DNA of 64,000 nt from an uncultured Gammaproteobacteria bacterium (GTDB lineage: Bacteria > Patescibacteriota > Patescibacteriia > Magasanikbacterales > UBA922): the NCBI GenBank assembly GCA_964612105.1, contig CAZTEU010000005.1:45039-109038 (forward strand), written 5' to 3'. Within the stretch, counting starts at the first letter, position 1, and each line of letters begins with the position of its first letter. The notes under the pieces are model-generated. The model worked only from the letters and a program-made list of their open reading frames with translations, was not told the origin of the DNA and made no database searches. This document shows, piece after piece, positions 8,209-35,157 of this stretch. The position numbers and the translations under genes were made by a program.

Positions 8209-8559
8209 ATGGATAAATACACAGTATGGCATAATCCCAGATGTGGAAATAGCCGAGGAACAATAGAACTGTTAAAAGAAAGAGGTATAGAGCCAGATAT
8301 AAAACTATATTTGGAGAACGTCCCAAGTGAAGATGAGCTAAAAAATGTTGCTAGACTTCTTAATAAAAAACCTATTGAGTTTACTAGAACAAAAGAGAAA
8401 GCGTTTAAAGAAGCAAATCTGAGAAAAGATAGTAGTGATGAAGAAATAATTAAGGCAATGAAAAAATATCCAATACTTATACAAAGACCAATTGTAATAA
8501 AAGACAATAAAACAGCAGTAATAAGTAGACCGCCAGAAACCGTGCTAGATTTCATATAA
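8209..8559 (+). CDS. ArsC/Spx-family protein (arsenate reductase-like, thioredoxin fold)
   Basis: MDKYTVWHNPRCGNSRGT... N-terminal Cys in ArsC/YffB-like context. Confidence 0.75.
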   Translation: MDKYTVWHNPRCGNSRGTIELLKERGIEPDIKLYLENVPSEDELKNVARLLNKKPIEFTRTKEKAFKEANLRKDSSDEEIIKAMKKYPILIQRPIVIKDNKTAVISRPPETVLDFI

Positions 8560-8560
8560 C

Positions 8561-8590
8561 AAAAAAAGCGCTATGCGCTTTTTTTAATAC
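8561..8590. terminator. rho-independent terminator (AAAAAAAGCGCTATGCGCTTTTTTT)
   Basis: Stem AAGCGC/GCGCTT with flanking A/T runs. Confidence 0.75.
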
Positions 8591-8679
8591 TAGACAAAAA
8601 GGTATGGGAGCGAACGAATCTTGTTTCTACGCCCCCTCAACCCCGCCCCAGATGGGACTAGTGTGGGACGGCGAGGCTA

Positions 8680-8916
8680 CTAACCCCTACTCGTGGTGTT
8701 GCTGTTCCAGACGAGGTCGAAGACCAGCGCCAGGAATAGGCTCATCGTGCAGATGCAGAACAGCACGATGCCGGTGTCGAACATCATGTGCTCGAAACCG
8801 TTCAGCCTGATACCATTGCAGCTGATGGCTGCACTTCGGTACATCGCGGATGCACCACCCACGATGAACAGAACTATGCAACCGATGAAGCAAGAACCAA
8901 ACAGCTTCCAGAACAT
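8680..8916 (-). CDS. small membrane protein (78 aa), island A gene 1
   Basis: Two hydrophobic helices; AAGGAGGGGAAA immediately upstream of ATG (rc of 8917-8932). Confidence 0.6.
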   Translation of the reverse strand: MFWKLFGSCFIGCIVLFIVGGASAMYRSAAISCNGIRLNGFEHMMFDTGIVLFCICTMSLFLALVFDLVWNSNTTSRG

Positions 8917-8990
8917 TTTCCCCTCCTTGAGGAATAGGTAACCTTACGGTCACCAGCGATAAGTACGTTCGCTCAACCTTTCTATCTAGT

Positions 8991-9040
8991 ATAGATTGTA
9001 AAGAGTTTTTGTTTTACCAAACAAAGAAGTGACGGGAGTG
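8991..9040 (+). repeat. intergenic repeat copy 1 (TTGTAAAGAGTTTTTGTTTT ... AAGAAGTGACGGGAGTGAA)
   Basis: Near-identical 20-mer plus related purine-rich 19-mer also at 9576-9628; third inverted partial copy at 9955-9975. Confidence 0.7.
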
Positions 9041-9084
9041 AATTGGATTCAGACTCGCCACCTCGCAGGCTCCTTCTCCTGCGA

Positions 9085-9498
9085 TCAGCGACGGCCCGTG
9101 TGTTGCTCGTCTGCGATCGTCGCCACCCCGGCGAACAGGATAGCGACACTGATGAGCCCAAGGATGGCCCACACCGTCGCCTCTGGATTCAGCACCATCT
9201 GGGCGCTGAATATTCCGCCGTACATGACGGCGGTGAAAACCATCCCAGCGAAGCTCGCCAACCAGACGAACATCCCCGTAACCAGGATTACCATCCCATC
9301 CCAGCGGGAGAAGGTCGACAGGTTGCAGATGCAACCCAAACCAGCCGCCACGAAGATGAAGGCGCCGATCAACAGCGCCAATGTCGCGAACTCGAGGAGG
9401 AACGGCAGGGTGAACACCCAGCCGAACACCTTCATGGCCACGCCCATGATGGTCGCGACTAGAGCCAAACTGACCGTCGGGATATCAAAGAAACGCAT
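9085..9498 (-). CDS. polytopic small membrane protein (137 aa), island A gene 2
   Basis: Four hydrophobic segments; CAAGGAGGAGAAAATG upstream. Confidence 0.6.
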   Translation of the reverse strand: MRFFDIPTVSLALVATIMGVAMKVFGWVFTLPFLLEFATLALLIGAFIFVAAGLGCICNLSTFSRWDGMVILVTGMFVWLASFAGMVFTAVMYGGIFSAQMVLNPEATVWAILGLISVAILFAGVATIADEQHTGRR

Positions 9499-9575
9499 TT
9501 TCTCCTCCTTGCTCGTCTACTGACGAGCTGTAGGCGTTTCGTCCAAAATTCACTCCACTTCTTTATTTGGTATAA

Positions 9576-9628
9576 GTTGTAAAGAGTTTTTGTTTTTCTA
9601 CTAAACAAGAAAGCGAGGAGGTGAACAT
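9576..9628 (+). repeat. intergenic repeat copy 2 (TTGTAAAGAGTTTTTGTTTTT ... AGAAAGCGAGGAGGTGAA)
   Basis: See copy 1. Confidence 0.7.
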
Positions 9629-9683
9629 AGTACGTTACAACCCCTCGCTGGAAACTGCTCCACAGGAAAAGGGTTGAAAGATC

Positions 9684-9920
9684 TCACTCGACGTCGTTGC
9701 ACACCGAGCGCACGGGCTCCTCATCGCTGTACCAGCCGAGGGGGGCTGCATAAACGACGAGGCCACCGATGCTCCCGAGGGAGGCCAGGGACAGACCCAG
9801 AATGGCCGTCTCCACCCGCCCCGCATCAGGGACGAGGAACAGGCCGGTGGCGAAGAGCCCCAGACCCACGAGGAGGAGGATGAAGAAACAGTGGGAATCA
9901 CGATCACGGCGACTACGCAT
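9684..9920 (-). CDS. small membrane protein (78 aa), island A gene 3
   Basis: Two hydrophobic helices; GGAG 8 nt upstream of ATG; TG-extended -10 promoter at 10027-10040. Confidence 0.5.
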   Translation of the reverse strand: MRSRRDRDSHCFFILLLVGLGLFATGLFLVPDAGRVETAILGLSLASLGSIGGLVVYAAPLGWYSDEEPVRSVCNDVE

Positions 9921-9954
9921 GGCAAACTCCAGCCTAGGTTACTTGAACGACGAT

Positions 9955-9975
9955 GTGTCGGACTTGTTCACCTCG
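9955..9975 (-). repeat. inverted partial repeat copy 3 (rc: AAGAAAGCGAGGTGAACA)
   Basis: Reverse complement matches purine-rich half of copy 2; lies about 40 nt upstream of island A gene 3. Confidence 0.6.
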
Positions 9976-10026
9976 CTTTCTTACTTAGTATATTTTAAGG
10001 TACTACTATCCTATTTTACCAACACA

Positions 10027-10040
10027 GTATTATAGCACAA
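10027..10040 (-). promoter_or_regulatory. TG-extended -10 promoter (TTGTGCTATAAT) pointing into island A
   Basis: Identical 13-mer to 2700-2713 and 38317-38330. Confidence 0.5.
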
Positions 10041-10042
10041 AA

Positions 10043-10070
10043 AACCCCTTTTGTCAAGGGGTTTTTATGG
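10043..10070. terminator. bidirectional terminator AAAAACCCCTTTTGTCAAGGGGTTTTT
   Basis: 10-bp perfect stem, loop TTGTC; related hairpin at 21637-21665. Confidence 0.8.
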
Positions 10071-10102: not shown

Positions 10103-11485
10103 TTACTGTTTCTCAATAATACCCCTTATCTCCCCTATCCTACCACTCAAATCCTCTTTCTTCCATGTTTCCAGATTTAGGCGTAAAACAGGCTCAGTAT
10201 TACTCTTTCTTACATTAAACCATCCCCAGTTAAATTCCATCCATACACCATCTATATTATTACTAGAAATAGCCTCATTTTTGTATATTTCTCTTATTTT
10301 TTCCATCATTCCATCTTTATCCTCCACCTCAAAATTAATCTCTCCTGAGTGATAATATTTCTTTAATGGAGTTATAATCTCACTAAGAGATTTGCCTGCC
10401 TGCGAAATAAGCCTAAGTATGTACAAAAGTGATAGTTCTGTACATTCAATCTTGTACATTTCATCAAAATATAGGTGCAGAGAAAGCTCGGAGCCAAACA
10501 CTCCATTTTCCTCACTCATTATTTTTTTAATGTAAGTATGCCCAACCTGTGTCATTATAGTTTTTGCTCCTGCAGACTCATATGACTCTTTAACAATCCT
10601 ACTGGAACGAAGATCATACAGCATTGTTGCACCTGGATTATTTTTTAGCACTTCCAAACCAATAATTGTAGCAACAAAAGATGCATCCACCACTTCCCCC
10701 TTCTCATTAACAACACCTATCCTATCCGCATCTCCATCCAAAGCAAAACCAAAATCTGCACCAACCTCTATAACCTTTGCTTGTAAGTCTTTTAATGTTT
10801 CTGTCTTTAATGGATTAGCCTCATGGTTTGGAAAAGTGCCGTCCGGCTCTATATACATGTACTCAACATTCACTTGAGATAATTTTTCCAATAATCTTGG
10901 AAATGTTACTCCTCCCATTCCATTTGCAGAATCTATAACTATTTTTAATGGTTTAATATCTTCCGGCTTTACCAATTCTAGAATTCTCTCCTGGTACAGC
11001 GGAAACATATCTTTCTCTTCCACATTTCCTTTTTCTTCTTTTACTTCACCAAAATCATTTTTTATTACAGCATCACGAATCTCTTCCATACCGTTTACTT
11101 TACCAACAGCTAATCCATTCCCAAGAGCTAATTTAAAACCATTATATTCTGCCGGATTATGACTAGCTGTAACAATTACCCCCCCAGCATGCTCTTCTAA
11201 ATGAGCGCAGGAGAAATTAAAAAGTGGAGTTGTACTTTGTCCTATGTTTACAACATCCACACCCTCATCTGTAATACCTTTTATTACAGCTTCACTAAAA
11301 GGTTTACTGGTTGGTCTCATGTCCAACCCAACTACCATTTTTTTTGCAGAAAAATCCTCACCTTTATTTTTTAGGAAGTTTACATATGCACGCCCAAGTC
11401 TGTACGCCAAATCCTCACTAAGCTCACTATCTGCAAGCCCGCGAATATCGTATGACTTAAAGACATGTTCTGGAATATCTACCAT
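10103..11485 (-). CDS. phosphoglucomutase/phosphomannomutase family protein (alpha-D-phosphohexomutase)
   Basis: VTASHNPAEYNGFK active-site Ser motif, Mg-binding DGDADR; start probably at MVDIPEHVFKSYDIRG (ORF track start 11542 is upstream). Confidence 0.85.
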   Translation of the reverse strand: MVDIPEHVFKSYDIRGLADSELSEDLAYRLGRAYVNFLKNKGEDFSAKKMVVGLDMRPTSKPFSEAVIKGITDEGVDVVNIGQSTTPLFNFSCAHLEEHAGGVIVTASHNPAEYNGFKLALGNGLAVGKVNGMEEIRDAVIKNDFGEVKEEKGNVEEKDMFPLYQERILELVKPEDIKPLKIVIDSANGMGGVTFPRLLEKLSQVNVEYMYIEPDGTFPNHEANPLKTETLKDLQAKVIEVGADFGFALDGDADRIGVVNEKGEVVDASFVATIIGLEVLKNNPGATMLYDLRSSRIVKESYESAGAKTIMTQVGHTYIKKIMSEENGVFGSELSLHLYFDEMYKIECTELSLLYILRLISQAGKSLSEIITPLKKYYHSGEINFEVEDKDGMMEKIREIYKNEAISSNNIDGVWMEFNWGWFNVRKSNTEPVLRLNLETWKKEDLSGRIGEIRGIIEKQ

Positions 11486-11590
11486 ATAATTTTGTTGAAA
11501 AATAAGCGGATTTAGTATATAGTACGAGTATCTCATACGCAAGTTTCAGAGAGTTTTTATGTACAAAATCTATAAATAAGATATAGGATT

Positions 11591-14134
11591 ATGGACCCAA
11601 AACAACTTCTAGATCATTTCTCCTCTCACCTAAAAAATGTAATAGCAAAAGCAATTTCTGTATCTGCAAGCTTTTCTCATTCAGAAGTAATGCCTGCACA
11701 TTTACTTCTCGCACTAGTACAAGAAAAAGGATCTATTGCTTCTCAGTTACTGGAAAAGTCAGAAGTTTCTTCCAAGACTATTCTTTCTTACCTAAAATCT
11801 ATAACAAAACAACTTCCTGCAATGGACATAGCAACACGAGCGGCAATAGCCACTCTTCCAGAACTCAGTAAATCTTCTAAAAGAGTTTTGGAAAAAGCAA
11901 TGCTTACTGGTTATGAAAATGAACATACCCATGTTGGTACAGAACACTTGCTGTACGGATTATTACAAAGTAGAGATGTTGGAATAAAAGAGATACTATC
12001 CAAAACAAAAATTAAGAGAAAAGAGATGACACAGCAGTTGGAAATTATTTTTACAAGTACAAACAAATTTCCAGATGTGCAGGATATAGCAGAAGCAATG
12101 GGACATATAGAAGAATTGGCAGAAGGAGGTGGTGCGCTTGCAATTACTCCTGAAAAATCAAAAACTCAAAAGAAATCTAGAACACAAAAATACCAAGCAT
12201 TGTCTATGTTTGCTGTAGAATTGACAGATGTAGATGTGCAAAAAACAATTGATCCTGTAATTGGTCGTGAAAACGAAATAGAAAGACTAATCCATGTGCT
12301 TTCTCGCAGGAATAAAAATAACCCTATACTTGTTGGAGAGCCCGGGGTTGGTAAAACAGCAATTGTAGAGGGGCTTGCAAAAAGGGTTTCGGAAGGAAAG
12401 GTGCCGGCTGTATTACAGAACAAAAAAATATTTGCATTGGACTTAACATTACTTGTTGCAGGTACAATATATCGTGGGGAATTTGAGGCTCGTATTAAAC
12501 AGCTTGTAGATGAGGTGTCCAGTAGAAGTGATTTTATTCTTTTTATAGATGAAATCCACAATATAATAGGAACAGGTTCCAATCAAGGAACAATGGATGC
12601 AGCAAACATATTAAAGCCTGCACTTGCGCGTGGAAAACTTAGGTGTATTGGAGCTACAACTCATGATGAGTATAAGAAGTACGTTACAGCAGATCCTGCT
12701 CTGGAAAGACGTTTCCAGGCTGTTAATGTAGAAGAGCCTTCTCGCGAAGAGGCAATAGAAATATTAAAAGGTGTAAAAAAATATTACGATGAATTTCATG
12801 GTGCTTCTATCAGCGATTCAGCAATTACTACAGCAGTAGACTTATCCATGAGATATATTCATGATAATTACTTGCCAGATAAGGCAATTGACTTAATAGA
12901 CGAAGCATCTGCTTCTGTACGCACAAAGAAAAAACCAACTCCCCTACAAAAAAAGAGGTTGGGCATTATAAAAGAGTTAAACAGTATAAGAAAAGACAAA
13001 GATACAGCTATGGCAAGTGAAGACTTAGATTCAGCGACTGTTTTAAAGAAACGACTAGATGATTTAGAAGAAAAAATAGAATCTCTAGAAAAACAGACAA
13101 AGAAAACAAAGAAGGTGGCGAGATCACGTGTTACTAAGAGTGATGTAATAGAAGTACTAGCAAACAGATTGGGGCTAAATAAGAAACTATTGGAAGAAAA
13201 CCAATGGTCCAAATTACAAACTCTTTCGGATAGGCTTTCAAATCATATTGTAGGGCAGGACACTGTACTCAACAAACTAGAGAGAGTATTAAAACAAGCT
13301 CATCTAGGTATAAGAGATAAAAACAAACCGTTGTCGTCTTTGCTTTTTGTTGGTCCTAGTGGTGTAGGAAAAACAGAACTCGCAAAATCTTTGGCGAAGG
13401 AGCTATATCACGATGAAAAATCTCTTATTAGGTTGGACATGAGTGAGTTTGCAGAAGGGCATGGTGTATCTAAACTACTTGGCTCCCCTGCTGGATATGT
13501 GGGATACAAAGACAGAAACCACTTTATCGATAAGCTAAAACAAAGACCTTACTCAGTCGTATTGTTCGATGAGTTTGACAAAGCCCATCCGGATGTTATG
13601 AAATTATTATTACAGATTTTAGATGAAGGCACTTTGACAGATAGTAATGGTAAAAAAGTCCACTTCTGCCACTCAACTGTTATCCTTACAAGCAATGTTG
13701 GGGCGGAACTATATAAGAAGAGTGGTTTTGGTTTTGGTTCTTCCAAGCAAAAAAGTGTGGAAGGTACAAAAAAACGAGATGAAGCAATAAGCTCAAAATT
13801 AAGAGATGTGTTTGGAACTCCCCTTCTAGGAAGACTTCATGAGGTGTGTATCTTTTCTCCTTTGACTAATGAAAATATAATGGAAATAATTTCTAGACAC
13901 GCAATAAAAATTAGCTCAGACCTAAAAACACAGCAGGATATCGCCCTTACTCTTACAAAGACTGCTATTAAACAGCTTGCGATAGACTCTAAACATGATG
14001 ATCTTGGAGCAAGGAATGTTGAACGTATAGTAGATCATGTTATACAGGATTTAGTTGTAGGTGAATTACAAAAAGAAAGTAAGAAGAAACAATATAGACT
14101 ATCCCATAAACAATCTGCATACTATTTACAATAA
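11591..14134 (+). CDS. clpC: Clp/Hsp100 AAA+ chaperone, ClpC-like ATP-binding subunit
   Basis: Clp_N repeats, two Walker A motifs GEPGVGKTA and GPSGVGKTELAK, 847 aa. Confidence 0.9.
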   Translation: MDPKQLLDHFSSHLKNVIAKAISVSASFSHSEVMPAHLLLALVQEKGSIASQLLEKSEVSSKTILSYLKSITKQLPAMDIATRAAIATLPELSKSSKRVLEKAMLTGYENEHTHVGTEHLLYGLLQSRDVGIKEILSKTKIKRKEMTQQLEIIFTSTNKFPDVQDIAEAMGHIEELAEGGGALAITPEKSKTQKKSRTQKYQALSMFAVELTDVDVQKTIDPVIGRENEIERLIHVLSRRNKNNPILVGEPGVGKTAIVEGLAKRVSEGKVPAVLQNKKIFALDLTLLVAGTIYRGEFEARIKQLVDEVSSRSDFILFIDEIHNIIGTGSNQGTMDAANILKPALARGKLRCIGATTHDEYKKYVTADPALERRFQAVNVEEPSREEAIEILKGVKKYYDEFHGASISDSAITTAVDLSMRYIHDNYLPDKAIDLIDEASASVRTKKKPTPLQKKRLGIIKELNSIRKDKDTAMASEDLDSATVLKKRLDDLEEKIESLEKQTKKTKKVARSRVTKSDVIEVLANRLGLNKKLLEENQWSKLQTLSDRLSNHIVGQDTVLNKLERVLKQAHLGIRDKNKPLSSLLFVGPSGVGKTELAKSLAKELYHDEKSLIRLDMSEFAEGHGVSKLLGSPAGYVGYKDRNHFIDKLKQRPYSVVLFDEFDKAHPDVMKLLLQILDEGTLTDSNGKKVHFCHSTVILTSNVGAELYKKSGFGFGSSKQKSVEGTKKRDEAISSKLRDVFGTPLLGRLHEVCIFSPLTNENIMEIISRHAIKISSDLKTQQDIALTLTKTAIKQLAIDSKHDDLGARNVERIVDHVIQDLVVGELQKESKKKQYRLSHKQSAYYLQ

Positions 14135-14135
14135 T

Positions 14136-14495
14136 ATGGAGGATCAACAAAAACAGTGGGCAACAGAACTACAAAAAGCGATAAACAAAACAAAAAAGGA
14201 TTCTGGAGATACCGAAGGAAACACAAGAGTCATTAATAAAAAAATCGCAGAGAAAAAAGAGGAGATTATTAAGGTAGCAGAGAAAAAGGATATAGACGGA
14301 GCAAAGAAGCTCTTTTTTGAGTTAATACAACTTCGTGCAACACATACTGCGCTTGGAATAAAAAAGATGAAAGAAAATGGAAAACTAACAAAAGACCTTG
14401 CAGAAAAGGTTGCAGAATATTTTATTACAGACTGTATTAATCTAGCAATTGCGGTTGATTCAATACTAGGAATAAATTATGGTACTGACTCCTAA
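14136..14495 (+). CDS. hypothetical coiled-coil protein (about 120 aa; start taken at MEDQQKQ after clpC stop)
   Basis: In-frame continuation of ORF 14061..14495 but clpC stop at 14132-14134 makes 14136 the plausible start. Confidence 0.4.
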   Translation: MEDQQKQWATELQKAINKTKKDSGDTEGNTRVINKKIAEKKEEIIKVAEKKDIDGAKKLFFELIQLRATHTALGIKKMKENGKLTKDLAEKVAEYFITDCINLAIAVDSILGINYGTDS

Positions 14496-16206
14496 TATAA
14501 TAGCATCCAAGGGTTTGCTGTCATCCTTACTAAAAGGAAAGGTTGGTACTTTAGTTTTAACAAAGGCATTTGTTGCAGCCGGTCTTGGAGACATGGCTCC
14601 AATAGTTGCGCAGTTGATATCTCGAGATGGTGTATTAGATACATTACTCCCTGGTGTTCTGGCACAGGCTGATTCATACAGACAAAATGCGCAGGATTTT
14701 GTAAGAAATAAGTTTGCTTCTGTTGTAGAACCACCTGCTGGTGCATATGACCCAGGGCTTGCATATGCTGGAGGTCCACAAGAATTTGCTGTCGGTGATA
14801 GCTTCCTTAATGACGCAAAAAAACTTGCTAAGGAAAGCTCTGACTCTGTTAACAAGAATAAGCCAGTAGAATCTTCACCTGAAGTACAAAAAGATGATAT
14901 AATAGCTCCAGAAGCACAACCGCCGGTTGGTGGTGGTCTTGGTGGCGGAAAAACAACCCCTCAGGATGCACAAGAACAACAAGATAATGGTGTAGCGCCA
15001 GACAAATCACAGCAAGTTGGTTCACCAGATAAACAACCTCAAGAAGATGAGGAACAGGCACAGGAACCTGCTTCTAAGGAAAAGCCAGAGCCTAAACAAA
15101 AAGCTAGTGAAGGGCAAGCAAAAGGTGAAGATGCTCCCCAAATACCTATTAGTGTTACTCTGGATAAGCCTGAAGATAGTAGAACTATAAAACTAGATGA
15201 TGAAAGTGAGGGTGGAGCAGGGGGAGAACAGGCAGACGAGGTAGATCCAACAGAATCTCAACCTTCTGTATTAGATGATAAAGAACCCTCAGAAGAACCG
15301 GCTACAGAATCTCCTGAAGAGGGCGGTAAAGAAGGTGAGGAAATCCCCAAAACTAAAACACCAGAGGATAGAGAGAAAAAAGAAGAAGATGAAAAGGAGA
15401 AGGAAGATGATGAGGATAAAGAAGAAAGTGATAGTGATGAAGACGATGAGGATGAAGAAGGTACAGAAGAGGAAGATGATGGATTAGGTTTTGATAAACC
15501 AACAGATTTTAGCGCTCCCGCAGAAGACGATTCCTCTGGAGCAGAAGAGGAACAGAAAGACGATGATAAGAAAGATCCGGGGAAAGAAGCACAAACAGCA
15601 CAACAATTGAGTAAGGATAAGAATCTAGACGCAAAAGAGAAACGTGATAAGAAAGGAAAAGAATCCACTAAAGGTAAAGAAAAAAGACCGGATGCAGAAA
15701 GACATGGGTCATCTAGTAGCGTGATGGTTGTGCTATGGATGCTACACGATATAGTTGCTTTTGTTAACATGATTTTAATGTTAATTCCAGCACTAAATAT
15801 TTTGACCGGCTGGCTAGTCACACTGATGTTCCTTGGTCCAATACTATTTATGCCATTTGTAGACGGTGATATATTCTGGTTTACAGTTGCATATATAATA
15901 GGAAAAAGAACTCCTAGAGGGCCTGAGGATGAGAAGCAGAATGTTGTAGACAGATTCACAAAAGAAAAGAAAGAGCAGGTTGTAGACTTAGCAGAACAAG
16001 AAGGAAAGAGATTAGCAAAGGAGGCTATAAAGTCGTTGGGCTGGTATGCGCTAATAATACCTGGAATAATTATATTATTCCCTGTCGACTTAGTAATATA
16101 CTGGATAATCGTGATTAGATTTACAGCAGCAAAAAGGCCTACAGCTAAGAAATCAAAAGAGGTTGCATTCAGCATTCTAGAACAAGCAAAAATAGCAAAA
16201 AAATAA
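14479..16206 (+). CDS. hypothetical envelope protein with D/E/K-rich low-complexity centre and C-terminal TM helices
   Basis: 575 aa; about 200-aa acidic low-complexity tract (EEDEKEKEDDEDKEESDSDEDDEDEEG), three hydrophobic helices near C-terminus. Confidence 0.6.
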   Translation: MVLTPNIIASKGLLSSLLKGKVGTLVLTKAFVAAGLGDMAPIVAQLISRDGVLDTLLPGVLAQADSYRQNAQDFVRNKFASVVEPPAGAYDPGLAYAGGPQEFAVGDSFLNDAKKLAKESSDSVNKNKPVESSPEVQKDDIIAPEAQPPVGGGLGGGKTTPQDAQEQQDNGVAPDKSQQVGSPDKQPQEDEEQAQEPASKEKPEPKQKASEGQAKGEDAPQIPISVTLDKPEDSRTIKLDDESEGGAGGEQADEVDPTESQPSVLDDKEPSEEPATESPEEGGKEGEEIPKTKTPEDREKKEEDEKEKEDDEDKEESDSDEDDEDEEGTEEEDDGLGFDKPTDFSAPAEDDSSGAEEEQKDDDKKDPGKEAQTAQQLSKDKNLDAKEKRDKKGKESTKGKEKRPDAERHGSSSSVMVVLWMLHDIVAFVNMILMLIPALNILTGWLVTLMFLGPILFMPFVDGDIFWFTVAYIIGKRTPRGPEDEKQNVVDRFTKEKKEQVVDLAEQEGKRLAKEAIKSLGWYALIIPGIIILFPVDLVIYWIIVIRFTAAKRPTAKKSKEVAFSILEQAKIAKK

Positions 16207-16215
16207 ATAAAAAAT

Positions 16216-17451
16216 ATGGATAAAAAAAGAATCTTGTTTATCGTAGCATTCGTTATAGCAACAATAGTGATAGGCTTTGCTATGTATCGAGTGTTCTTTT
16301 ATACTCCAAAACCTGCAGAACGACCTGGAACTATTGCAACAGAACCATCCAAGTTCCCATCATCTGGAGAGGCAGGAGAAATAGACAGACCAACAATCCC
16401 ACCATCAGAAGTGTTACCTCCATCTGTCACAGCACCAAGTCAACCAGGAGTAGGTGATGGAATAGGAGTTGGAGAAGATGTACAAAAAATAGTGCAATCT
16501 GTTATAAACACACCTGTTGTTGGTATGGATATAAGTAATCAGAGTGGGCAGGCTAGATTCTATAACCAAGAAGACGGGAAGTTTTATTCTGTAGACGCAC
16601 TCGGACAACCAAGGGAACTAACAGACCAGGTTTTCTTTAACGTAGAAAATGTAACATGGTCCCCTACTCAAAGTGAGTCGATTATAGAATACCCAGACGG
16701 TGCAAATATTTATTATAATTTCAATACAAAAAAACAAGTTACATTACCAAAACACTGGGATTCTTTCTCATTTACAGATACAGGAGATAAAATAGCAGCA
16801 AAGAGTCTAGGGTTCTCTGAAGAAAACAGGTGGCTCATTAGTTCAGACCCAACAGGAAGTAATATAAACCTAATAGAGCCTCTTGGTAGTAACGCAGATA
16901 AAGTAATTGTAGACTGGTCTCCAAATAAACAGATTGTTGGGTTATCAGCTACTGGTGAAGAGCTTGGTTCTGATAGACAAGAGATATTATTTGTTGGACA
17001 GAATGGTGAGAATTTTAAATCAACAATAGTAGAAGGTAGAGATCTGAGGACAGAATGGTCAAAGACAGGTTCTAAACTATTGTACAGCGTTCATAATTCA
17101 CGAAATGATTTCAAGCCAGAGCTTTGGGTTGTAAAAGGTAGTGGAGAAAACTTGGGGGGAGGAAGAAAGCTACTTAATGTGGATACATGGGCAGATAAGT
17201 GTTCATTCTCAGATGATAGGTATGCCTATTGTGGAGTACCGCAAATACTAGAAAAAGGTTCTGGTTTTGCACCAGCCCTTGCGGACTCAACACCAGACGA
17301 CTTGTACAAGATAGATGTGGAGACAGGACTAAAGGTGCAAATACCTCTAGATGATTTCCATGTAATCGATACTATTTCATTAAGTCCGGACGGGAAGACA
17401 TTGTATTTTACAGACAAAAACATTCCAGGACTATATAAAGTACAGTTATAA
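16216..17451 (+). CDS. TolB-like beta-propeller (PD40/WD40-like) protein with N-terminal TM anchor
   Basis: N-terminal TM, Pro-rich linker, repeated ...W..SP.G..I.. propeller-like repeats, C-terminal LSPDGKTLYFTD. Confidence 0.6.
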   Translation: MDKKRILFIVAFVIATIVIGFAMYRVFFYTPKPAERPGTIATEPSKFPSSGEAGEIDRPTIPPSEVLPPSVTAPSQPGVGDGIGVGEDVQKIVQSVINTPVVGMDISNQSGQARFYNQEDGKFYSVDALGQPRELTDQVFFNVENVTWSPTQSESIIEYPDGANIYYNFNTKKQVTLPKHWDSFSFTDTGDKIAAKSLGFSEENRWLISSDPTGSNINLIEPLGSNADKVIVDWSPNKQIVGLSATGEELGSDRQEILFVGQNGENFKSTIVEGRDLRTEWSKTGSKLLYSVHNSRNDFKPELWVVKGSGENLGGGRKLLNVDTWADKCSFSDDRYAYCGVPQILEKGSGFAPALADSTPDDLYKIDVETGLKVQIPLDDFHVIDTISLSPDGKTLYFTDKNIPGLYKVQL

Positions 17452-17453
17452 AT

Positions 17454-18092
17454 ATGCCTAGTCACAAGCAATTATTAACTTTATTTGTACCAGCCCTTGC
17501 TGTTGTTGCTATTGGTTTAATAATTGCGATTATACAGTACGACCCTCTCTACCCAAAAGAGAACAATAATAAATCAGAGGCTTCTGATCTAATACCTATT
17601 TTTACAGAAGATCCAATTGTCGGATACAAGAAAGCTCCTATTACAATTATTGCGTTTGAAGACTTTGGTTGTGAAGGATGCAAAGCTCAATCAGATATTT
17701 TCGATCAAATAATGCTCAAACACCCAAAAAAAATAAAGGTTGTTTGGAAATCACTTACAGTAACAAGATTCCCAATTTCTACACAACGAGCTCATGAGTA
17801 TGGATTATGTGCAAACGAACAAGGTAAGTTTAGCGAATTCAAAGAACTTGCTTTTGTTAACGGGCTTAACCTGTCCCAAGGAATATTAGATTTAATAGTA
17901 GAAGAAACAGAAATGAGTGAACGCAAACTAACATCCTGCCTAAACTCAGCAAAACCTACAAAATATCTGTCACAAAACGAATCTCTAGCTAACCTGCTAA
18001 ACGTACAGGCAGTACCTACAATATTTATAGACAATGTACAGATTAATACACCTTCTAGTATAGAAGAATGGGAAATGGTCCTAGGATTATAA
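17454..18092 (+). CDS. DsbA-like thioredoxin-fold thiol:disulfide oxidoreductase
   Basis: N-terminal TM, CEGC (CxxC) motif. Confidence 0.75.
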   Translation: MPSHKQLLTLFVPALAVVAIGLIIAIIQYDPLYPKENNNKSEASDLIPIFTEDPIVGYKKAPITIIAFEDFGCEGCKAQSDIFDQIMLKHPKKIKVVWKSLTVTRFPISTQRAHEYGLCANEQGKFSEFKELAFVNGLNLSQGILDLIVEETEMSERKLTSCLNSAKPTKYLSQNESLANLLNVQAVPTIFIDNVQINTPSSIEEWEMVLGL

Positions 18093-18094
18093 TT

Positions 18095-19834
18095 ATGAAA
18101 TCAATACTCCCTAAAAAAATATTATTCTCACTGGGAATTTTTTTATTTGTTTTTGGAGTAATGAGTTATCCCCCACAAGCTAAGTCTGCAAAGTTAGACT
18201 TTGGAGCTGTTTGTACAGGAGATTCTCAATGCGATTCTGGAGAATGCGAAAACAGCACAAAAAAAGATGCGAAAGGACAGACAATAGCCTACTGTGTGTG
18301 TGAGGAAGAAGTTGTAGGAGAAGATGGTTTAGATTGTGCAAAGAAATATGGTGGAACATCTTCTGACTGGACTTGTGAAGATGGTGGAGATGCAAGTTGG
18401 AATATAAACTATTGTGTTAGTACAAAAGATGATAATGATAAGAGGTATGCTGTTCCAGTAAAGATACTAGGTGCTCTAAGTGGAGTTTCAGATGCAATCA
18501 TAAAATCCGGTACTGGAGTAACGAAAGACGAAATAGACACCTTAGTTACAACACCTCAACCTAGGATAAAAATCCCTGGATTAAACTTTACTAAAGTGGA
18601 AAACCTGCGAGATTTAGCTACCAAAGAACAAACTCCAGACGGTCGAGAAGAGTTATATATAAACATACCATTTTTTGGGGAATACATAGCTACTATATAT
18701 AGATTTGCAGTAATACTTGCTAGTATTTGGGCCATTGTATACATGATGGACGCTGGACTACTACTAATAATTGCTGGAGGTAATGCAGAAAAAATTCAAC
18801 AGGCAAAACATAAAATAGTACGGGGTTTCTCTGGATTGTTCATTATATTAGGATCATATGTGCTGTTATACACATTAAATCCAGAGTTGGTGACGTTTAA
18901 GAATCTAAGGATATTGTATGTAGAGACAGAGCCATATCCAGAGATAACACATGAAACTGCTCATCAGGGTCCAGGTGGAACTTTGCTTCCTGCGAATGGA
19001 TTAGTAGCAAAAAAAGTAACCTCATTTGGTGAGCTTACAGAACAAGATTTTACAAAAGATAAAATGAACGCAATAATGACTGACGGATGGAAAGTTTGGC
19101 AATCTTTTACACAAACAGAAAAACAGGAGGTTTTACCACATTTATTTAAGTATATTGGCGAATGCCCACAATCTTCTAGCTTAATTAACATGGGTATTAA
19201 TCATGCCAACTGGTCCAAGAAAAAAATCCACAAGGATGCACTTCCGGCAGCCCAGCTACTTGCAAAAATTGCAGATAGAGAAGGGTTCAGGATATATATA
19301 TCCTCTACTTATCGCACAACTTTGAGACAAACACAGATATGGAATACAGGAATAGTGGCGAGGTATAAGCAAAAAAGATCAGGATGGAAAAGAAATGAGG
19401 GTAAAATCGGACGCCCTTCGTGTGGTTCACCACATAACTCCGGAGCTGCAATGGATGTAAATCTGAAAATACCAGTAAAGAAAGGCGGTAAAATAACATA
19501 TAAGTGCGTGGCTTGTCAGAACGATAAAAAGTACTTTATAACAGCAAAGACCGACTCAGCGGCCATAAAACAATATGAACAACAGTATCTAGGTGGAAGC
19601 GATGGTGGACTATATAGATTAATACTGGAAGAGATGTTCAAAGAGGCTGGTTGGGTAAGATACTGTGATGAGTATTGGCATTTTGAGACTGCAGTTACAA
19701 CACGTTACAACAAGTGGGATAAAGCTCCAGAGACACGTTGTGTAAGACACTATAAAAATTGGAAGCCTGAAATAGAAGACAATATAAAGAAAAAAGCAAA
19801 CTCTCTTACAAAAACTGGCACATTGTTTAAATAA
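18095..19834 (+). CDS. secreted Cys-rich / pilin-like TM / peptidase M15 (VanY/LAS-type D,D-carboxypeptidase) fusion protein
   Basis: Signal peptide from MKSILPKK; 18-Cys N-domain; two-helix hydrophobic hairpin resembling TrbC/VirB2 pilins; C-terminal SPHNSGAAMDV (H-x6-D) and EYWHFE Zn-ligand motifs of M15 peptidases. Confidence 0.6.
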   Translation: MKSILPKKILFSLGIFLFVFGVMSYPPQAKSAKLDFGAVCTGDSQCDSGECENSTKKDAKGQTIAYCVCEEEVVGEDGLDCAKKYGGTSSDWTCEDGGDASWNINYCVSTKDDNDKRYAVPVKILGALSGVSDAIIKSGTGVTKDEIDTLVTTPQPRIKIPGLNFTKVENLRDLATKEQTPDGREELYINIPFFGEYIATIYRFAVILASIWAIVYMMDAGLLLIIAGGNAEKIQQAKHKIVRGFSGLFIILGSYVLLYTLNPELVTFKNLRILYVETEPYPEITHETAHQGPGGTLLPANGLVAKKVTSFGELTEQDFTKDKMNAIMTDGWKVWQSFTQTEKQEVLPHLFKYIGECPQSSSLINMGINHANWSKKKIHKDALPAAQLLAKIADREGFRIYISSTYRTTLRQTQIWNTGIVARYKQKRSGWKRNEGKIGRPSCGSPHNSGAAMDVNLKIPVKKGGKITYKCVACQNDKKYFITAKTDSAAIKQYEQQYLGGSDGGLYRLILEEMFKEAGWVRYCDEYWHFETAVTTRYNKWDKAPETRCVRHYKNWKPEIEDNIKKKANSLTKTGTLFK

Positions 19835-19889: not shown

Positions 19890-21224
19890 ATGACAAAAGA
19901 AACAATAATCTTCGTGTGCTCTAACTGCGACGCTCAATTCCAGAAATGGACTGGACAATGCTTCGAATGTGGTAAATGGGGTACAGTAGAAAACAAGACA
20001 GCAATCACAGATAACAAATCTGGAGACAGTAAAGTTATTGGTGTAGGTGTAAACACACAAAAGCTAGGTGAAATAAAAAATGTAGATTCTTTTAGGAACT
20101 CCTCAAAAATTGGAGAACTAGATCGTGTTCTTGGTGGTGGAATAGTACCAGGTAGTTTAATACTTCTTGGAGGAGAGCCTGGTATTGGAAAATCCACTCT
20201 TTCTTTGCAAATTGCAAACAATATGAAAAAGTCACTATACATTTCTGGAGAAGAATCAATAAATCAGATTAAGATGAGAGCAGACAGACTTGGTAATGCA
20301 AATGCAGATATGTTAGTTATGCATGAGAATGATATAGAAAATATATGCGCAACAATAAAAAAAGAGTCTCCGGAGATTGTAATAATAGACTCAATACAAA
20401 CAATGATATCCAATGACACAAGTGGAGAGCCTGGAAATGTAAATCAGGTGCGTGTGTGTGCAACAAAGCTTTTGGATTCTGCTAAGCAAAGTAAGAGTGC
20501 TATAGTTATTATTGGTCATGTTACAAAAGATGGTTCTGTTGCTGGACCAAAGACTCTGGAACATCTAGTAGATACTGTTTTGTACATTGAGGGAGATAGG
20601 TACTACCAAACAAGACTTTTGAGAACAATAAAAAATAGGTTTGGCTCTACAGATGAAGTAGGTGTCTTTGAAATGAACGAACTCGGTCTTAAGGAAGTAA
20701 AAAACCCATCATCTGCTTTCTTAGAAGAGCGTGCAGATGATACGCCTGGCAGTGTTGTTACTTGTCTTATAGAAGGCACTCGCCCACTACTAATTGAGGT
20801 GCAGGCATTAGTAAATAAAACTAGTTTTGGATATCCTGTACGCAAAGCAAGCGGTTTCGATCTAAATAGATTACATGTACTTGTAGCTGTACTACAAAAA
20901 AGAGCAGGACTGCAGTTAGGTCAGTATGATATCCATGTAAATGTAGTTGGAGGATTAAAAGCACAAGAGCCGGCTGCAGACTTAGCAGTATGTCTTGCTA
21001 TAGCAAGCTCTTTTAAGGACAAGGTACTTGGTGGAGATTTGGTAGTTTTTGGAGAAGTTGGATTAGGTGGAGAAGTAAGAAGAGTAAATCAGTCTCAAAA
21101 AAGAATAAAAGAGTGTGAGAAACTTGGTATGCAACGAGTAGTAACTTCCAAAAACCCAGGTAATGTTCATGGAACAAAGATTATAGAAGTAAAGAATATA
21201 GCAGAACTAATCCAGAAAACATAA
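19890..21224 (+). CDS. radA: DNA repair protein RadA (Sms)
   Basis: N-terminal C4 zinc finger (CSNCDAQFQKWTGQCFECGKWG), RecA-like Walker A GEPGIGKST, KNRFG motif, Lon-like C-terminus. Confidence 0.95.
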   Translation: MTKETIIFVCSNCDAQFQKWTGQCFECGKWGTVENKTAITDNKSGDSKVIGVGVNTQKLGEIKNVDSFRNSSKIGELDRVLGGGIVPGSLILLGGEPGIGKSTLSLQIANNMKKSLYISGEESINQIKMRADRLGNANADMLVMHENDIENICATIKKESPEIVIIDSIQTMISNDTSGEPGNVNQVRVCATKLLDSAKQSKSAIVIIGHVTKDGSVAGPKTLEHLVDTVLYIEGDRYYQTRLLRTIKNRFGSTDEVGVFEMNELGLKEVKNPSSAFLEERADDTPGSVVTCLIEGTRPLLIEVQALVNKTSFGYPVRKASGFDLNRLHVLVAVLQKRAGLQLGQYDIHVNVVGGLKAQEPAADLAVCLAIASSFKDKVLGGDLVVFGEVGLGGEVRRVNQSQKRIKECEKLGMQRVVTSKNPGNVHGTKIIEVKNIAELIQKT

Positions 21225-28282: not shown

Positions 28283-29161
28283 ATGACAATATCAAAGGAG
28301 GGGCTCGTTGCTTTTTATAGCAAAATAACTTATGGGCGATACTGTCAGATACAAAAAAACTTCTCCTCTTTTGAGGAGTTTTGGGGTGCTAGTCCTGACG
28401 AATTATTCTTGCGTCTTAGGTGGAAAGAAGATTTGATTTCTCACTTCTGCTCTTGGCGAAAAGATTTAGAGTACAATAAAATAGAAGAGTTAATGCAAGA
28501 ACAAGAAATGTATCTGGTTTTAATGGATGATAAGGACTATCCCCCACTACTAAAAGAGATACATAGCCCACCTATTGCACTTTTTGTTCGTGGAACATTG
28601 GAAAACATAAGAAAACCATTAGCTGTTGTTGGTACAAGGAAATGTTCTACGTACGGAAAACAGATTACAAGGACACTTGTGAGTGAACTAGCAAAAGAAG
28701 GAATCAGTATTATTAGCGGTCTAGCATATGGGATAGACGCAAGTGCTCATTATGCAACCCTACAAGCAAGTGGTAATACAATTGCTGTTCTGGGATCTGG
28801 ATGTGATGAAAACACAATAACCCCAGCCCCACATAGAAAACTAGCACAACAGATAGTAGAATCTGGAGGGGCTGTTATATCTGAGTACCCACCAGGTACT
28901 CATCCTACTAAATATTCTTTTCCAGAGAGAAACAGAATTATATCTGGAATTAGTATAGGGACACTTGTTATTGAGGCTCCTGAAAAATCTGGAGCATTAA
29001 TTACTTCTGATTTTGCACTTAACCAAAACCGAGAGGTCTTTGCTGTACCTCATAATATAACAAATATAAACGGGGCTGGTACAAATGAATTAATTAAAAA
29101 AGGTTCTCACGTTGTAACAAACTCAAGAGATATATTACATGTTTTTGAATCTAATCCATGA
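28283..29161 (+). CDS. dprA: DNA processing protein DprA (Smf)
   Basis: Rossmann-like LAVVGTRKCSTYG...SGLAYGIDASAH. Confidence 0.9.
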   Translation: MTISKEGLVAFYSKITYGRYCQIQKNFSSFEEFWGASPDELFLRLRWKEDLISHFCSWRKDLEYNKIEELMQEQEMYLVLMDDKDYPPLLKEIHSPPIALFVRGTLENIRKPLAVVGTRKCSTYGKQITRTLVSELAKEGISIISGLAYGIDASAHYATLQASGNTIAVLGSGCDENTITPAPHRKLAQQIVESGGAVISEYPPGTHPTKYSFPERNRIISGISIGTLVIEAPEKSGALITSDFALNQNREVFAVPHNITNINGAGTNELIKKGSHVVTNSRDILHVFESNP

Positions 29162-35060: not shown

Positions 35061-35157
35061 TTTTGGAACTGGATAAAGCATACCAAAATATCACTATATG
35101 TCAAGTATGGTGCTAGAACTTGCCAAAATAGTAAAAAATGGTTAAAGTAAATGGGCT

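What the first reader, a model, noticed from the sequence alone, without database searches (positions are those of the whole stretch)
18095..19834. Unusual three-part fusion: 18-Cys secreted domain + pilin-like TM hairpin + M15 peptidoglycan peptidase
The N-terminal domain (about 120 aa) has 18 cysteines in CxxC/CxC patterns. A DsbA-like gene is adjacent, consistent with extracytoplasmic disulfides. The middle has two long hydrophobic helices separated by a short charged loop (AGGNAEKIQQAKHKIVRG). The C-terminus carries the Zn-ligand motifs of VanY/M15 LAS peptidases (SPHNSGAAMDV; EYWHFE). A cell-wall hydrolase tethered to a pilin-like anchor is reminiscent of VirB1/CwlT-type conjugation hydrolases in Gram-positive T4SS. 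It could open peptidoglycan, of self or host, for a surface appendage.
Basis: partly seen in the sequence, partly recalled or inferred. Interest (0 to 1): 0.5.

Follow-up and report, generated by a model that had tools for sequence, protein, structure and literature searches.

The report
Pilin-anchored cell-wall peptidase of CPR bacteria
This gene encodes an exported, membrane-anchored zinc peptidase that probably cuts bacterial cell wall; it belongs to a large, apparently undescribed family in ultra-small (CPR) bacteria in which a secretion-system pilin-like anchor carries interchangeable wall-cutting enzymes.

Summary
The three-part protein is real (ORF 18095-19834, 579 aa), but one detail is wrong. 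The N-terminal domain has 8 cysteines, not 18, and no CxxC/CxC pattern.

- **Middle domain:** it is a two-helix membrane hairpin. It matches Pfam T4SS_pilin only below threshold here, but above threshold in homologues that align end to end.
- **Family:** the protein is not a one-off. The exhaustive search gave 1,522 cluster representatives at E<=1e-10, and the 80 genome loci examined are all CPR/Patescibacteria.
- **Swapped enzymes:** the same core carries M15, Amidase_2, SLT, C39-like, NlpC/P60 or M23 domains, often in the same chromosomal slot (DsbA-like gene, this gene, radA).
- **T4SS link:** in 17 of 80 species loci a VirB4 ATPase lies within 10 kb. None lies in this window.

Best reading: a disulfide-stabilised, pilin-scaffolded wall hydrolase that plays the VirB1-like role for the CPR type IV secretion/pilus apparatus. 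Rivals are an ordinary autolysin and a host-directed weapon. I rate it a new variant of a known kind, of moderate-to-high interest.

The parts
18095..19834 (+). Whole ORF, 579 aa plus stop: signal peptide, 8-Cys domain, pilin-like membrane hairpin core, M15 peptidase
   Evidence: (P0001 100% identical, 579 aa)
18095..18181 (+). Signal peptide (residues 1-29; KK n-region, hydrophobic 4-27)
   Evidence: Hydropathy and low pLDDT. The cleavage site is inferred, not predicted with a tool.
18182..18469 (+). N-terminal 8-Cys extracytoplasmic domain (residues 30-125), mostly beta, with no known fold match
18542..18934 (+). Conserved family core (residues 150-280): PxPxIxIPGLxF motif, beta-hairpin, TM helix 1, basic loop, TM helix 2, invariant N262-P263, short strand
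   Evidence: core present in all 153 hits. (near-invariant columns). (helices 193-226 and 231-261). (PF18895).
18773..18826 (+). Short basic loop AGGNAEKIQQAKHKIVRG (residues 227-244), predicted cytoplasmic by the positive-inside rule
   Evidence: The topology is inferred.
18992..19831 (+). C-terminal M15/LAS zinc peptidase domain (residues 300-579), with extra N-terminal subdomain and insertions
19313..19315 (+). R407, invariant; aligns to VanX Arg71
19427..19459 (+). SPHNSGAAMDV: zinc ligands H447 and D454 (H-x6-D)
19670..19687 (+). EYWHFE: catalytic E526 and zinc ligand H529
17454..18092 (+). Membrane-anchored DsbA/Thioredoxin_4-like oxidoreductase (CEGC motif); conserved upstream partner
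   Evidence: (64 of 80 loci).
16216..17451 (+). Membrane-anchored TolB-like beta-propeller protein (411 aa); conserved partner, also present in VirB4 loci
   Evidence: TolB E about 5e-8. (69 of 80 loci).
14479..16206 (+). 575-aa protein with a long acidic low-complexity region and C-terminal hydrophobic helices. A gene of 297-575 aa occupies this position in the close relatives inspected. Function unknown.
   Evidence: no Pfam hit. (gene at this position in each locus). (sequence match at E<=1e-5 in only 2 of 87 loci).
14136..14495 (+). Small protein of about 119 aa, conserved in position directly after clpC. Function unknown.
11591..14134 (+). ClpC-like AAA+ chaperone; upstream flank of the conserved block
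19890..21224 (+). RadA/Sms; downstream flank of the conserved slot
   Evidence: (51 of 80 loci).

Best explanation
**What the protein is.** The gene encodes a Sec-exported membrane protein with both large domains outside the cell.
- After the signal peptide comes a roughly 96-aa domain with 8 invariant cysteines, presumably forming 4 disulfides made by the adjacent membrane-anchored DsbA-like enzyme.
- Next is a two-helix membrane hairpin with a short basic cytoplasmic loop. It is homologous to the VirB2-like 'T4SS_pilin' module of CPR bacteria.
- Last is an M15/LAS zinc peptidase with a complete active site.

**What it does.** The enzyme acts on peptidoglycan stem peptides next to the membrane. 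The protein is one member of a family found so far only in CPR bacteria, in which the same pilin-like scaffold carries interchangeable wall hydrolases. That family is physically linked to VirB4 type IV secretion loci in several lineages.

**Most likely role.** It is the wall-opening (VirB1-like) enzyme of the CPR T4SS/pilus apparatus. The pilin-like module would hold it at the machine, and it would work with the TolB-like propeller protein encoded two genes upstream.

**Shown versus inferred.**
- *Shown:* the domain architecture, the conservation of catalytic residues, the family, the synteny and the linkage to VirB4 in relatives.
- *Inferred:* the topology, the disulfides, the substrate and bond cleaved, the physical association with a T4SS, and the presence of a T4SS in this genome.
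For: - **Architecture:** the AF2 model has mean pLDDT 87.6, with three confident domains and low-confidence linkers.
- **M15 identity:**
  - VanY PF02557 scores 34.6 bits against a cut-off of 25.
  - R407, H447 and D454 are invariant, and E526, W528 and H529 are conserved in at least 90% of 28 homologues.
  - The family profile hits LdcB/YodJ at 1.3e-10 and VanX at 3.5e-10, with the catalytic residues aligned.
- **Pilin-like core:**
  - PF18895 matches 64 of 87 relatives, best E 1.4e-8.
  - It scores above its cut-off in P0035 and P0037 and in L085, L069 and L075 ORFs.
  - The core HMM also finds stand-alone small PF18895 pilins next to fusion genes.
- **Swappable hydrolases:** VanY, M15, M15_4, Amidase_2, SLT, C39_2, NlpC/P60 and M23 all occur on the same core. 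Directly after DsbA, 58 loci carry M15 (19), Amidase_2 (13), C39_2 (3), SLT (2), M23 (1) or an unclassified domain (20).
- **T4SS link:**
  - VirB4 lies within 10 kb in 17 of 80 species loci, mostly 2-6 kb upstream on the same strand.
  - L085 reads VirB4, core protein, TolB-like, DsbA, [T4SS_pilin+SLT], RadA, RecG. The same slot there holds a VirB1-type domain.
- **Literature:**
  - PMC12102498 reports that most CPR genomes with VirB2-like pilins lack a VirB1. It also reports that Magasanikbacteria T4SS loci often include recG and radA.
  - In S. epibionticum, the essential gene next to virB4 (SEML1_0007) ends in a Hedgehog/DD-peptidase (LAS) domain (PMC10633639 supplement).
- **DsbA partnership:** 64 of 80 loci.
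Against: - No VirB4 or any other recognisable T4SS gene lies in the 64-kb window, or within 10 kb in the closest relatives L001 and L008. The neighbours are housekeeping genes (clpC, radA, recG).
- For this protein the PF18895 match is below the curated cut-off (18.3 against 26.6 bits).
- Fold comparison of the hairpin finds only generic helical hairpins and no T4SS pilin.
- A 579-aa protein with two bulky external domains is unlikely to polymerise like a 70-aa pilin.
Confidence: 0.55

Rival explanations
1. It is an ordinary housekeeping autolysin or stem-peptide peptidase for growth, division or wall maturation. The two-helix hairpin is only a membrane anchor that happens to descend from a pilin. 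The protein works with the TolB-like propeller and the DsbA-like enzyme as a wall-remodelling module independent of any T4SS.
For: - The gene sits in a core-genome, operon-like block running clpC ... radA, with 2-55 nt gaps between genes (3-10 nt from 16206 to 18095) and no convincing + strand terminator.
- The same block recurs in about 70 of 87 loci.
- No T4SS gene lies in the window.
- No match exists in the phage or plasmid collections.
- The closest M15 relatives are the wall-maturation carboxypeptidases LdcB and VanY.
Against: - A wall-maturation enzyme would be expected to keep its bond specificity. Instead the orthologous slot carries amidase, lytic transglycosylase, M15, M23 or C39-like domains in different species.
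- The same module, TolB-like gene included, sits directly downstream of VirB4 with stand-alone pilins in 14 or more loci.
- The window also encodes a separate S11 DD-carboxypeptidase at 38987-40003.
Confidence: 0.28
2. It is a host-directed weapon. The hydrolase is displayed at the contact site on a T4SS pilus, or released from its anchor, to breach the peptidoglycan of the host bacterium on which the CPR cell lives. The swappable C-terminal domains and the 8-Cys domain would adapt it to different host walls, as in polymorphic effector families.
For: - There is a polymorphic C-terminal enzymatic domain on a constant N-terminal scaffold.
- Tandem duplicates with different C-domains occur in 30 of 80 loci.
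- N262-P263, directly after the second helix, is invariant in the 150-member alignment and could be a release site.
- The 8-Cys domain has no known fold and occurs only in this family.
- The CPR T4SS is essential for epibiotic growth and lacks relaxase and coupling protein (PMC10633639, PMC12102498).
Against: - No immunity-like gene follows it. radA follows directly in 51 of 80 loci.
- The enzyme would be exposed to the producer's own wall.
- There is no evidence of release or of pilus incorporation.
- Nothing is known of the lifestyle or host of this organism.
Confidence: 0.15
3. It is a prophage-derived holin-endolysin fusion, with a two-helix holin joined to an M15 endolysin.
Against: - There is no tblastn match in 50,697 phage records.
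- No phage genes lie nearby.
- The chromosomal position is conserved across many CPR classes.
- A cleavable signal peptide, an extracytoplasmic 8-Cys domain and a DsbA partner do not fit a holin.
Confidence: 0.02

Closest known systems
VirB1 / CwlT / PrgK / TraG(pIP501)-type T4SS peptidoglycan hydrolases
   Same: These are membrane-tethered or exported wall hydrolases that serve a type IV secretion machine. Paralogues in the family found here carry the same catalytic domains (SLT, NlpC/P60, M23) and sit next to VirB4.
   Different: This protein has an M15 zinc peptidase rather than an SLT, lysozyme or CHAP domain. Its anchor is a VirB2-like two-helix hairpin rather than a single helix or lipobox. 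It also carries an extra 8-Cys domain and has obligate DsbA-like and TolB-like neighbours. It is not encoded in a T4SS locus in this window.
CPR VirB2-like pilins (Pfam PF18895 T4SS_pilin; pilin arrays of Southlakia and TM7x)
   Same: It shares a signal peptide, a two-helix hairpin with a short basic loop and sequence homology of the core. The known distribution is CPR/Patescibacteria.
   Different: Stand-alone pilins are about 100-200 aa. This protein is 579 aa with globular domains on both termini, plus a family-specific pre-hairpin motif (PxPxIxIPGLxF) and a post-hairpin NPxLV motif. The query itself scores below the Pfam cut-off. Polymerisation is unlikely and untested.
M15 (LAS) peptidases: VanX, VanY, LdcB/YodJ, phage endolysins Ply500 and LysB4
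   Same: It has the same fold and the complete R / H-x6-D / E-x2-H active site.
   Different: Identity is only 14-22%. The domain is about 280 aa against about 180, with an added N-terminal subdomain, an insertion at about residues 456-505 and a C-terminal extension. It has four conserved cysteines (C357, C443, C524, C549). Bond specificity is unknown.
SEML1_0007 of Southlakia epibionticum ML1 (essential gene next to virB4)
   Same: It is a CPR protein with a C-terminal Hedgehog/DD-peptidase (LAS) domain encoded in a T4SS locus, and it is essential for epibiotic growth (PMC10633639 supplement).
   Different: It is 1,113 aa with an unrelated N-terminal region as far as its annotation shows.

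Membership tests
Peptidase M15 / LAS (VanY, VanX, LdcB) | Profile match at or above the curated threshold | tested here: met
   Pfam VanY PF02557 scores 34.6 bits against a cut-off of 25, E 2e-8. A family profile against PDB sequences gives 4ox3 at 1.3e-10 and 1r44 at 3.5e-10.
Peptidase M15 / LAS (VanY, VanX, LdcB) | Zinc ligands H-x6-D plus a distal H, with the catalytic Glu and Arg | tested here: met
   H447, D454 and R407 are invariant, and E526 and H529 are conserved in at least 90% of 28 homologues. They align to the GYRP / SSHSRGSAID / EWWHY motifs of VanX.
Peptidase M15 / LAS (VanY, VanX, LdcB) | LAS (Hedgehog/DD-peptidase) fold | tested here: met
Peptidase M15 / LAS (VanY, VanX, LdcB) | Zinc-dependent hydrolysis of a peptidoglycan peptide bond | not testable with these tools
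   This needs the purified domain, muropeptide analysis and active-site mutants.
T4SS_pilin (PF18895) / VirB2-like pilin | Profile match at or above the Pfam gathering score | tested here: inconclusive
   The query scores 18.3 bits against 26.6, so the cut-off is not reached. Homologues whose core aligns end to end do pass it: P0035 28.9 and P0037 28.4, L085 ORF 32.0, L069 ORFs 31.6 and 29.5. In all, 64 of 87 relatives hit at E<=0.01.
T4SS_pilin (PF18895) / VirB2-like pilin | Signal peptide followed by two membrane helices joined by a short basic cytoplasmic loop | tested here: met
   Hydropathy and loop sequence. AF2 helices 193-226 and 231-261. The orientation is inferred from the positive-inside rule.
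T4SS_pilin (PF18895) / VirB2-like pilin | Small protein that polymerises into a pilus | tested here: not met
   The protein is 579 aa with globular domains of 96 aa and 280 aa on either side of the hairpin. Polymerisation itself cannot be tested here. I therefore file it as 'contains a pilin-like module', not as a pilin.
T4SS_pilin (PF18895) / VirB2-like pilin | Structural similarity to solved T4SS pilins | tested here: inconclusive
T4SS_pilin (PF18895) / VirB2-like pilin | Encoded with VirB4 and other T4SS genes | tested here: not met
   None lies in the 64-kb window. The feature is met for distant family members: 17 of 80 loci have VirB4 within 10 kb.
VirB1 / CwlT / PrgK T4SS hydrolases | SLT or lysozyme-like and/or CHAP or NlpC/P60 catalytic domain | tested here: not met
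   This protein carries M15 only. Family paralogues carry SLT (8 of 87), NlpC/P60 (3) or M23 (3).
VirB1 / CwlT / PrgK T4SS hydrolases | Encoded in a T4SS locus and required for its function | tested here: not met
   The locus criterion is not met in this window. The requirement for function cannot be tested here.

The most novel reading that the evidence does not exclude
CPR bacteria possess an 'armed pilin' system. A VirB2-like pilin scaffold is built into, or released from, the essential T4SS pilus. It presents interchangeable peptidoglycan-cutting enzymes, together with an 8-Cys binding domain of unknown fold, to the wall of the host bacterium. Domain swapping in a fixed chromosomal slot would then track host wall chemistry. 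A dedicated DsbA and a TolB-like propeller would serve as maturation and assembly factors.
Probability: 0.18. Interest if true: 0.85.

Novelty: new variant of a known kind. Interest (0 to 1): 0.6.

Why it matters
[quoted passage not shown] A recent survey concluded that most CPR genomes with VirB2-like pilins lack a VirB1 wall hydrolase (PMC12102498).

The family described here offers a concrete answer. The wall-cutting activity is fused to a pilin-like module, with at least six different catalytic domains, and is partnered with a dedicated DsbA-like gene and a TolB-like gene.

This gives testable candidates in the genetically tractable Saccharibacteria. It also defines a conserved three-gene module for annotating thousands of 'hypothetical' CPR proteins, and an 8-Cys domain with no structural match in the PDB. 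If the enzymes act on the host wall rather than the producer's own, they would be a direct molecular handle on how epibionts breach their hosts.

Tried and rejected
- **Single-sequence search of PDB sequences:** nothing found. A family profile was needed.
- **Word-index homologue search with the full protein:** only 5 hits. The exhaustive search was needed to see the family.
- **The search for related loci with the 150- and 28-sequence alignments:** An 8-sequence alignment worked.
- **N-domain:**
  - The afdb50 library was unavailable.
  - A profile search of the 5.8-billion-protein index found nothing.
  - Its function therefore stays unknown. The weak Pfam hits to nodulin, defensin and EB modules I regard as cysteine-spacing artefacts.
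- **Fold test of the hairpin against pilins:** uninformative.
- **Second core-bearing gene, or VirB4, in the window:** none.
- **The 575-aa upstream protein as a degenerate core protein:** no match.
- **Phage or plasmid origin:** no tblastn match, so the holin-endolysin idea is rejected.
- **Rfam at gathering and at E<=0.01:** only two tRNAs.
- **Literature:** four full-text searches and four papers read. None describes a pilin-hydrolase fusion. This is absence in the held library, not proof that it is unpublished.
- **NCBIfam:** gave no name for the neighbouring genes.
Full report
**1. The observation**

The + strand ORF ends at 19834. Its likely start is the ATG at 18095, giving 579 aa.
- The alternative ATG at 18068 overlaps the stop of the upstream gene.
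- The 18095 start has an AGGA about 10 nt upstream.
- It equals a database protein of 579 aa (P0001) and matches the N-termini of homologues.

- a hydrophobic signal peptide at residues 4-27;
- two long hydrophobic helices at about 197-231 and 240-266;
- the loop AGGNAEKIQQAKHKIVRG at residue 227;
- SPHNSGAAMDV at 445 and EYWHFE at 526.

The cysteine count is wrong. The N-terminal domain has 8 cysteines (40, 46, 51, 67, 69, 81, 94, 107) and the whole protein has 14. The N-domain has a single CxC, and the only CxxC lies in the C-domain.

The 8 cysteines are nevertheless a real feature.
- They are invariant, with one Gly, one Ser and one Trp, in 34 aligned N-domains of 29-44% identity to the query N-domain.
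- Nearly all of the 98 homologues with this domain carry 8-10 Cys before the core, most often exactly 8, or 13-20 (mostly 16-17) in longer N-terminal regions, presumably doubled.

**2. Domain anatomy**

An AlphaFold2 model built on 150 homologues has mean pLDDT 87.6. It parses the protein as follows.

| Residues | Segment | Confidence / features |
|---|---|---|
| 1-29 | signal peptide | low pLDDT |
| 30-125 | N-domain, mostly beta | pLDDT above 90 |
| 126-143 | linker | disordered |
| about 150-280 | core | beta-hairpin 176-191, helices 193-226 and 231-261, strand 271-275 |
| 281-296 | linker | disordered |
| 300-579 | C-domain | pLDDT above 90 |

The signal peptide and the net-positive loop between the helices predict an N-out/C-out topology. 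That places both globular domains outside the cytoplasmic membrane. This is an inference from the positive-inside rule, with no topology predictor run.

**3. The C-domain is an M15/LAS zinc peptidase**

- Pfam VanY scores 34.6 bits against a cut-off of 25.
- In 28 homologues with this domain, R407, H447 and D454 are invariant. E526, W528 and H529 are conserved in at least 90%.
- A profile of these sequences finds B. subtilis YodJ/LdcB (1.3e-10), VanX (3.5e-10), B. anthracis LdcB, VanXY, VanY, Ply500 and LysB4 among PDB sequences.
- It aligns xYRx / SPHxxGxAxD / ExWH to the GYRP / SSHSRGSAID / EWWHY motifs of VanX. These hold VanX Arg71, His116, Asp123, Glu181 and His184; the residue numbering is from my own knowledge of VanX.

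What cannot be read from this is the bond cleaved. The best matches are dipeptidases and carboxypeptidases, and the lytic M15 endolysins match somewhat less well.

**4. The middle part and the family**

On its own, the query hits Pfam T4SS_pilin (PF18895) below threshold, at 18.3 against 26.6 bits.

An exhaustive phmmer search of 1.84 billion cluster representatives found 7,276 proteins at E<=1e-3, 1,522 at E<=1e-10 and 100 at E<=1e-30. All 153 proteins retrieved share the roughly 130-residue core. Near-invariant positions include P154, I158, P161, G162, F165, P192, G195, Y202, G221, S254, Y255, L258, N262, P263 and L265.

Of 87 family members scanned, 64 match PF18895, with a best E of 1.4e-8. 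Several pass the curated cut-off. A core HMM also detects stand-alone 150-210-aa PF18895 pilins encoded next to fusion genes.

The core is therefore homologous to the CPR 'VirB2-like' pilin module, which the literature treats as the T4SS pilin (PMC12102498, PMC10633639, PMC12857230). Fold comparison of a two-helix hairpin is uninformative.

**5. Interchangeable hydrolases**

The part after the core differs between members.

| C-terminal domain | Members of 87 |
|---|---|
| VanY | 26 |
| Peptidase_M15 | 17 |
| Peptidase_M15_4 | 10 |
| Amidase_2 | 10 |
| SLT | 8 |
| Peptidase_C39_2 | 6 |
| Peptidase_C39 | 4 |
| NlpC/P60 | 3 |
| M23 | 3 |

Several clusters have no Pfam match. Most of the recognisable domains are peptidoglycan hydrolases; the C39-type papain-like domains are the uncertain ones.

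The part before the core is the 8-Cys domain in 98 of 153 hits, sometimes doubled. In others it is an SGNH hydrolase or another domain, or it is absent.

The full 8-Cys + core + M15 architecture recurs in P0006, P0007, P0009, P0019, P0021 and P0022 among others.

**6. Genomic context**

In this window the gene lies in a tight same-strand block:
- clpC (11591-14134);
- a small ORF;
- a 575-aa acidic/membrane protein;
- a 411-aa membrane-anchored protein;
- a DsbA-like gene (17454-18092);
- this gene;
- radA (19890-21224).

recG lies opposite. Gaps between genes are 2-55 nt (3-10 nt between 16206 and 18095). The consensus scan shows no convincing + strand terminator inside the block, which is weak evidence.

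The 411-aa protein has a TolB-like beta-propeller (profile against PDB TolB, E about 5e-8).

The same order is found around homologues at 24-45% identity and in most of 80 species-representative genomes. Those whose record title gives a lineage are all CPR/Patescibacteria, and about 30 MAG records titled 'uncultured Gammaproteobacteria' share the same synteny. They are mainly Magasanikbacteria, with Uhr-, Falkow-, Buchanan-, Moran-, Kerfeld- and Peregrinibacteria, Paceibacter and Saccharibacteria.

| Feature in the 80 species loci | Loci |
|---|---|
| DsbA-like gene within 2.3 kb upstream, same strand | 64 |
| TolB-like gene present | 69 |
| radA directly downstream | 51 |
| two or three core genes in tandem | 30 |

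These are lower bounds, because many contigs are cut.

The ORF directly after the DsbA-like gene carries M15 in 19 loci, Amidase_2 in 13, C39_2 in 3, SLT in 2, M23 in 1 and an unclassified domain in 20. The scaffold and the slot are conserved while the catalytic domain is exchanged.

**7. Link to type IV secretion**

No VirB4 or other T4SS gene is in the window. Every ORF of 500 aa or more was scanned against Pfam, and three VirB4 queries found nothing.

In 17 of 80 species loci, however, a VirB4/TraC-type ATPase (Pfam P-loop_TraG, AAA_10, TraC_F_IV) lies within 10 kb.
- In 14 of them it is 2-6 kb upstream on the same strand, with one to three genes between.
- Locus L085 bridges the two arrangements: x228, VirB4, 239-aa ORF, core protein, TolB-like, DsbA-like, [T4SS_pilin 32 bits + SLT 65 bits], radA, and recG opposite. 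The slot occupied here by the M15 fusion holds there a fusion with the canonical VirB1 catalytic domain.
- In L054, L058 and L076 the clpC...radA block is kept, and VirB4 lies a few kb past recG on the other strand.

This matches the published note that Magasanikbacteria T4SS loci often include recG and radA (10.1101/2025.01.22.634366). That study also states that most CPR genomes with VirB2-like pilins lack VirB1 (PMC12102498).

In Southlakia epibionticum, the essential gene adjacent to virB4 (SEML1_0007) ends in a Hedgehog/DD-peptidase (LAS) domain. The next gene (SEML1_0006) has lysozyme-like and cysteine-protease domains (PMC10633639 supplement).

**8. Mechanism proposed**

- *Shown:* an exported protein with a complete M15 active site; a pilin-homologous membrane hairpin; an invariant 8-Cys domain; conserved adjacency to a DsbA-like and a TolB-like gene; and family-level linkage to VirB4.
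- *Inferred:*
  - the DsbA-like enzyme oxidises the 8-Cys domain and the four conserved cysteines of the C-domain (C357, C443, C524, C549);
  - the hairpin inserts N-out/C-out;
  - the enzyme cuts stem peptides in the producer's own wall close to the membrane;
  - the pilin-like module targets or retains it at the T4SS/pilus assembly site, supplying the missing VirB1-like activity.

I put this at about 0.55. The rivals are a T4SS-independent autolysin module (about 0.28), a host-directed, pilus-displayed or released weapon (about 0.15), and a phage holin-endolysin relic (about 0.02). The last is contradicted by the absence of any phage or plasmid match and by the core-genome context.

**9. Comparison with the known, and novelty**

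The protein works like a VirB1/CwlT/PrgK-type hydrolase but fails that family's membership tests, because it has a different catalytic domain and is not in a T4SS locus here.
- It is a member of peptidase family M15.
- It contains, but is not, a T4SS_pilin-type pilin.

The papers I could search and read describe CPR pilin arrays and separate VirB1-like hydrolases. They do not describe fusion of the pilin module to hydrolases, or its DsbA-like and TolB-like partners. That is absence in the held library only.

I therefore rate it a new variant of a known kind, with interest 0.6. The finding is not a rarity of this window. It is a doorway to a large, coherent and apparently unremarked CPR family that bears on an open question: how the essential CPR T4SS crosses a wall, and whose wall.

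Noticed in passing
window 8560-10050: An island of about 1.5 kb at 50-60% GC sits in a genome of about 37% GC, between an ArsC-like ORF (8209-8559) and the phosphoglucomutase gene (10103-11542, minus strand). It has only short overlapping ORFs on both strands, one of them a 137-aa hydrophobic ORF (9085-9498, minus) with no Pfam hit, and no Rfam hit at E<=0.01. The relative L001 has only a 168-aa ORF at this position. It may be a foreign insertion or an unknown structured RNA.
   Followed up: partly
window 34000-36000: This is a second region of raised GC (0.456). The ORF 33987-35000 (minus strand, 337 aa) has no significant Pfam match.
   Followed up: partly
window 18878-18883 (N262-P263): An Asn-Pro pair directly after the second membrane helix is invariant in the 150-member family alignment (both are also invariant). 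Asn-Pro bonds are chemically labile, so this could be a processing or release site for the C-terminal enzyme. That idea is speculation.
   Followed up: no
window 16216-17451: This 411-aa protein has an N-terminal membrane anchor and a TolB-like beta-propeller, with invariant K328, C329, C339 and P342. It is a conserved neighbour of the pilin-hydrolase genes in 69 of 80 species loci and also occurs in VirB4 loci of Saccharibacteria and Moranbacteria. It may be an unrecognised T4SS-associated component.
   Followed up: partly
window 14479-16206: This 575-aa protein has a region of about 270 aa rich in Asp, Glu and Lys, then several hydrophobic helices. A gene of very variable length (297-575 aa) occupies the same position in the relatives inspected. 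It has no Pfam or NCBIfam match.
   Followed up: partly
L078:6368-7033 (also L075, L079, L080, L087): An Rce1-like CPBP intramembrane protease gene lies between VirB4 and a 937-aa membrane protein in Moranbacteria-type T4SS loci, just upstream of the pilin-SLT fusion. It is a candidate pilin-processing peptidase.
   Followed up: no
L008-L087 record titles: About 30 of the 80 MAG records that carry this CPR-specific gene block are titled 'uncultured Gammaproteobacteria bacterium'. Their synteny and gene content match Magasanikbacteria and other CPR, so the titles look like placeholder or wrong taxonomy.
   Followed up: no
window 11591-14134 and 19890-21224: clpC and radA are adjacent in the Bacillus ctsR-mcsA-mcsB-clpC-radA-disA operon (my own knowledge). 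Here, five envelope genes sit between them in the block that recurs across many CPR lineages. This suggests an old insertion of the module into that operon.
   Followed up: no
window 28283-29161, 31286-33568, 38987-40003: DprA and topoisomerase I lie downstream, which fits the competence and recombination flavour of the neighbourhood. A separate S11 DD-carboxypeptidase (PBP5-like) is also encoded in the window, so the M15 enzyme is not the only stem-peptide peptidase here.
   Followed up: no
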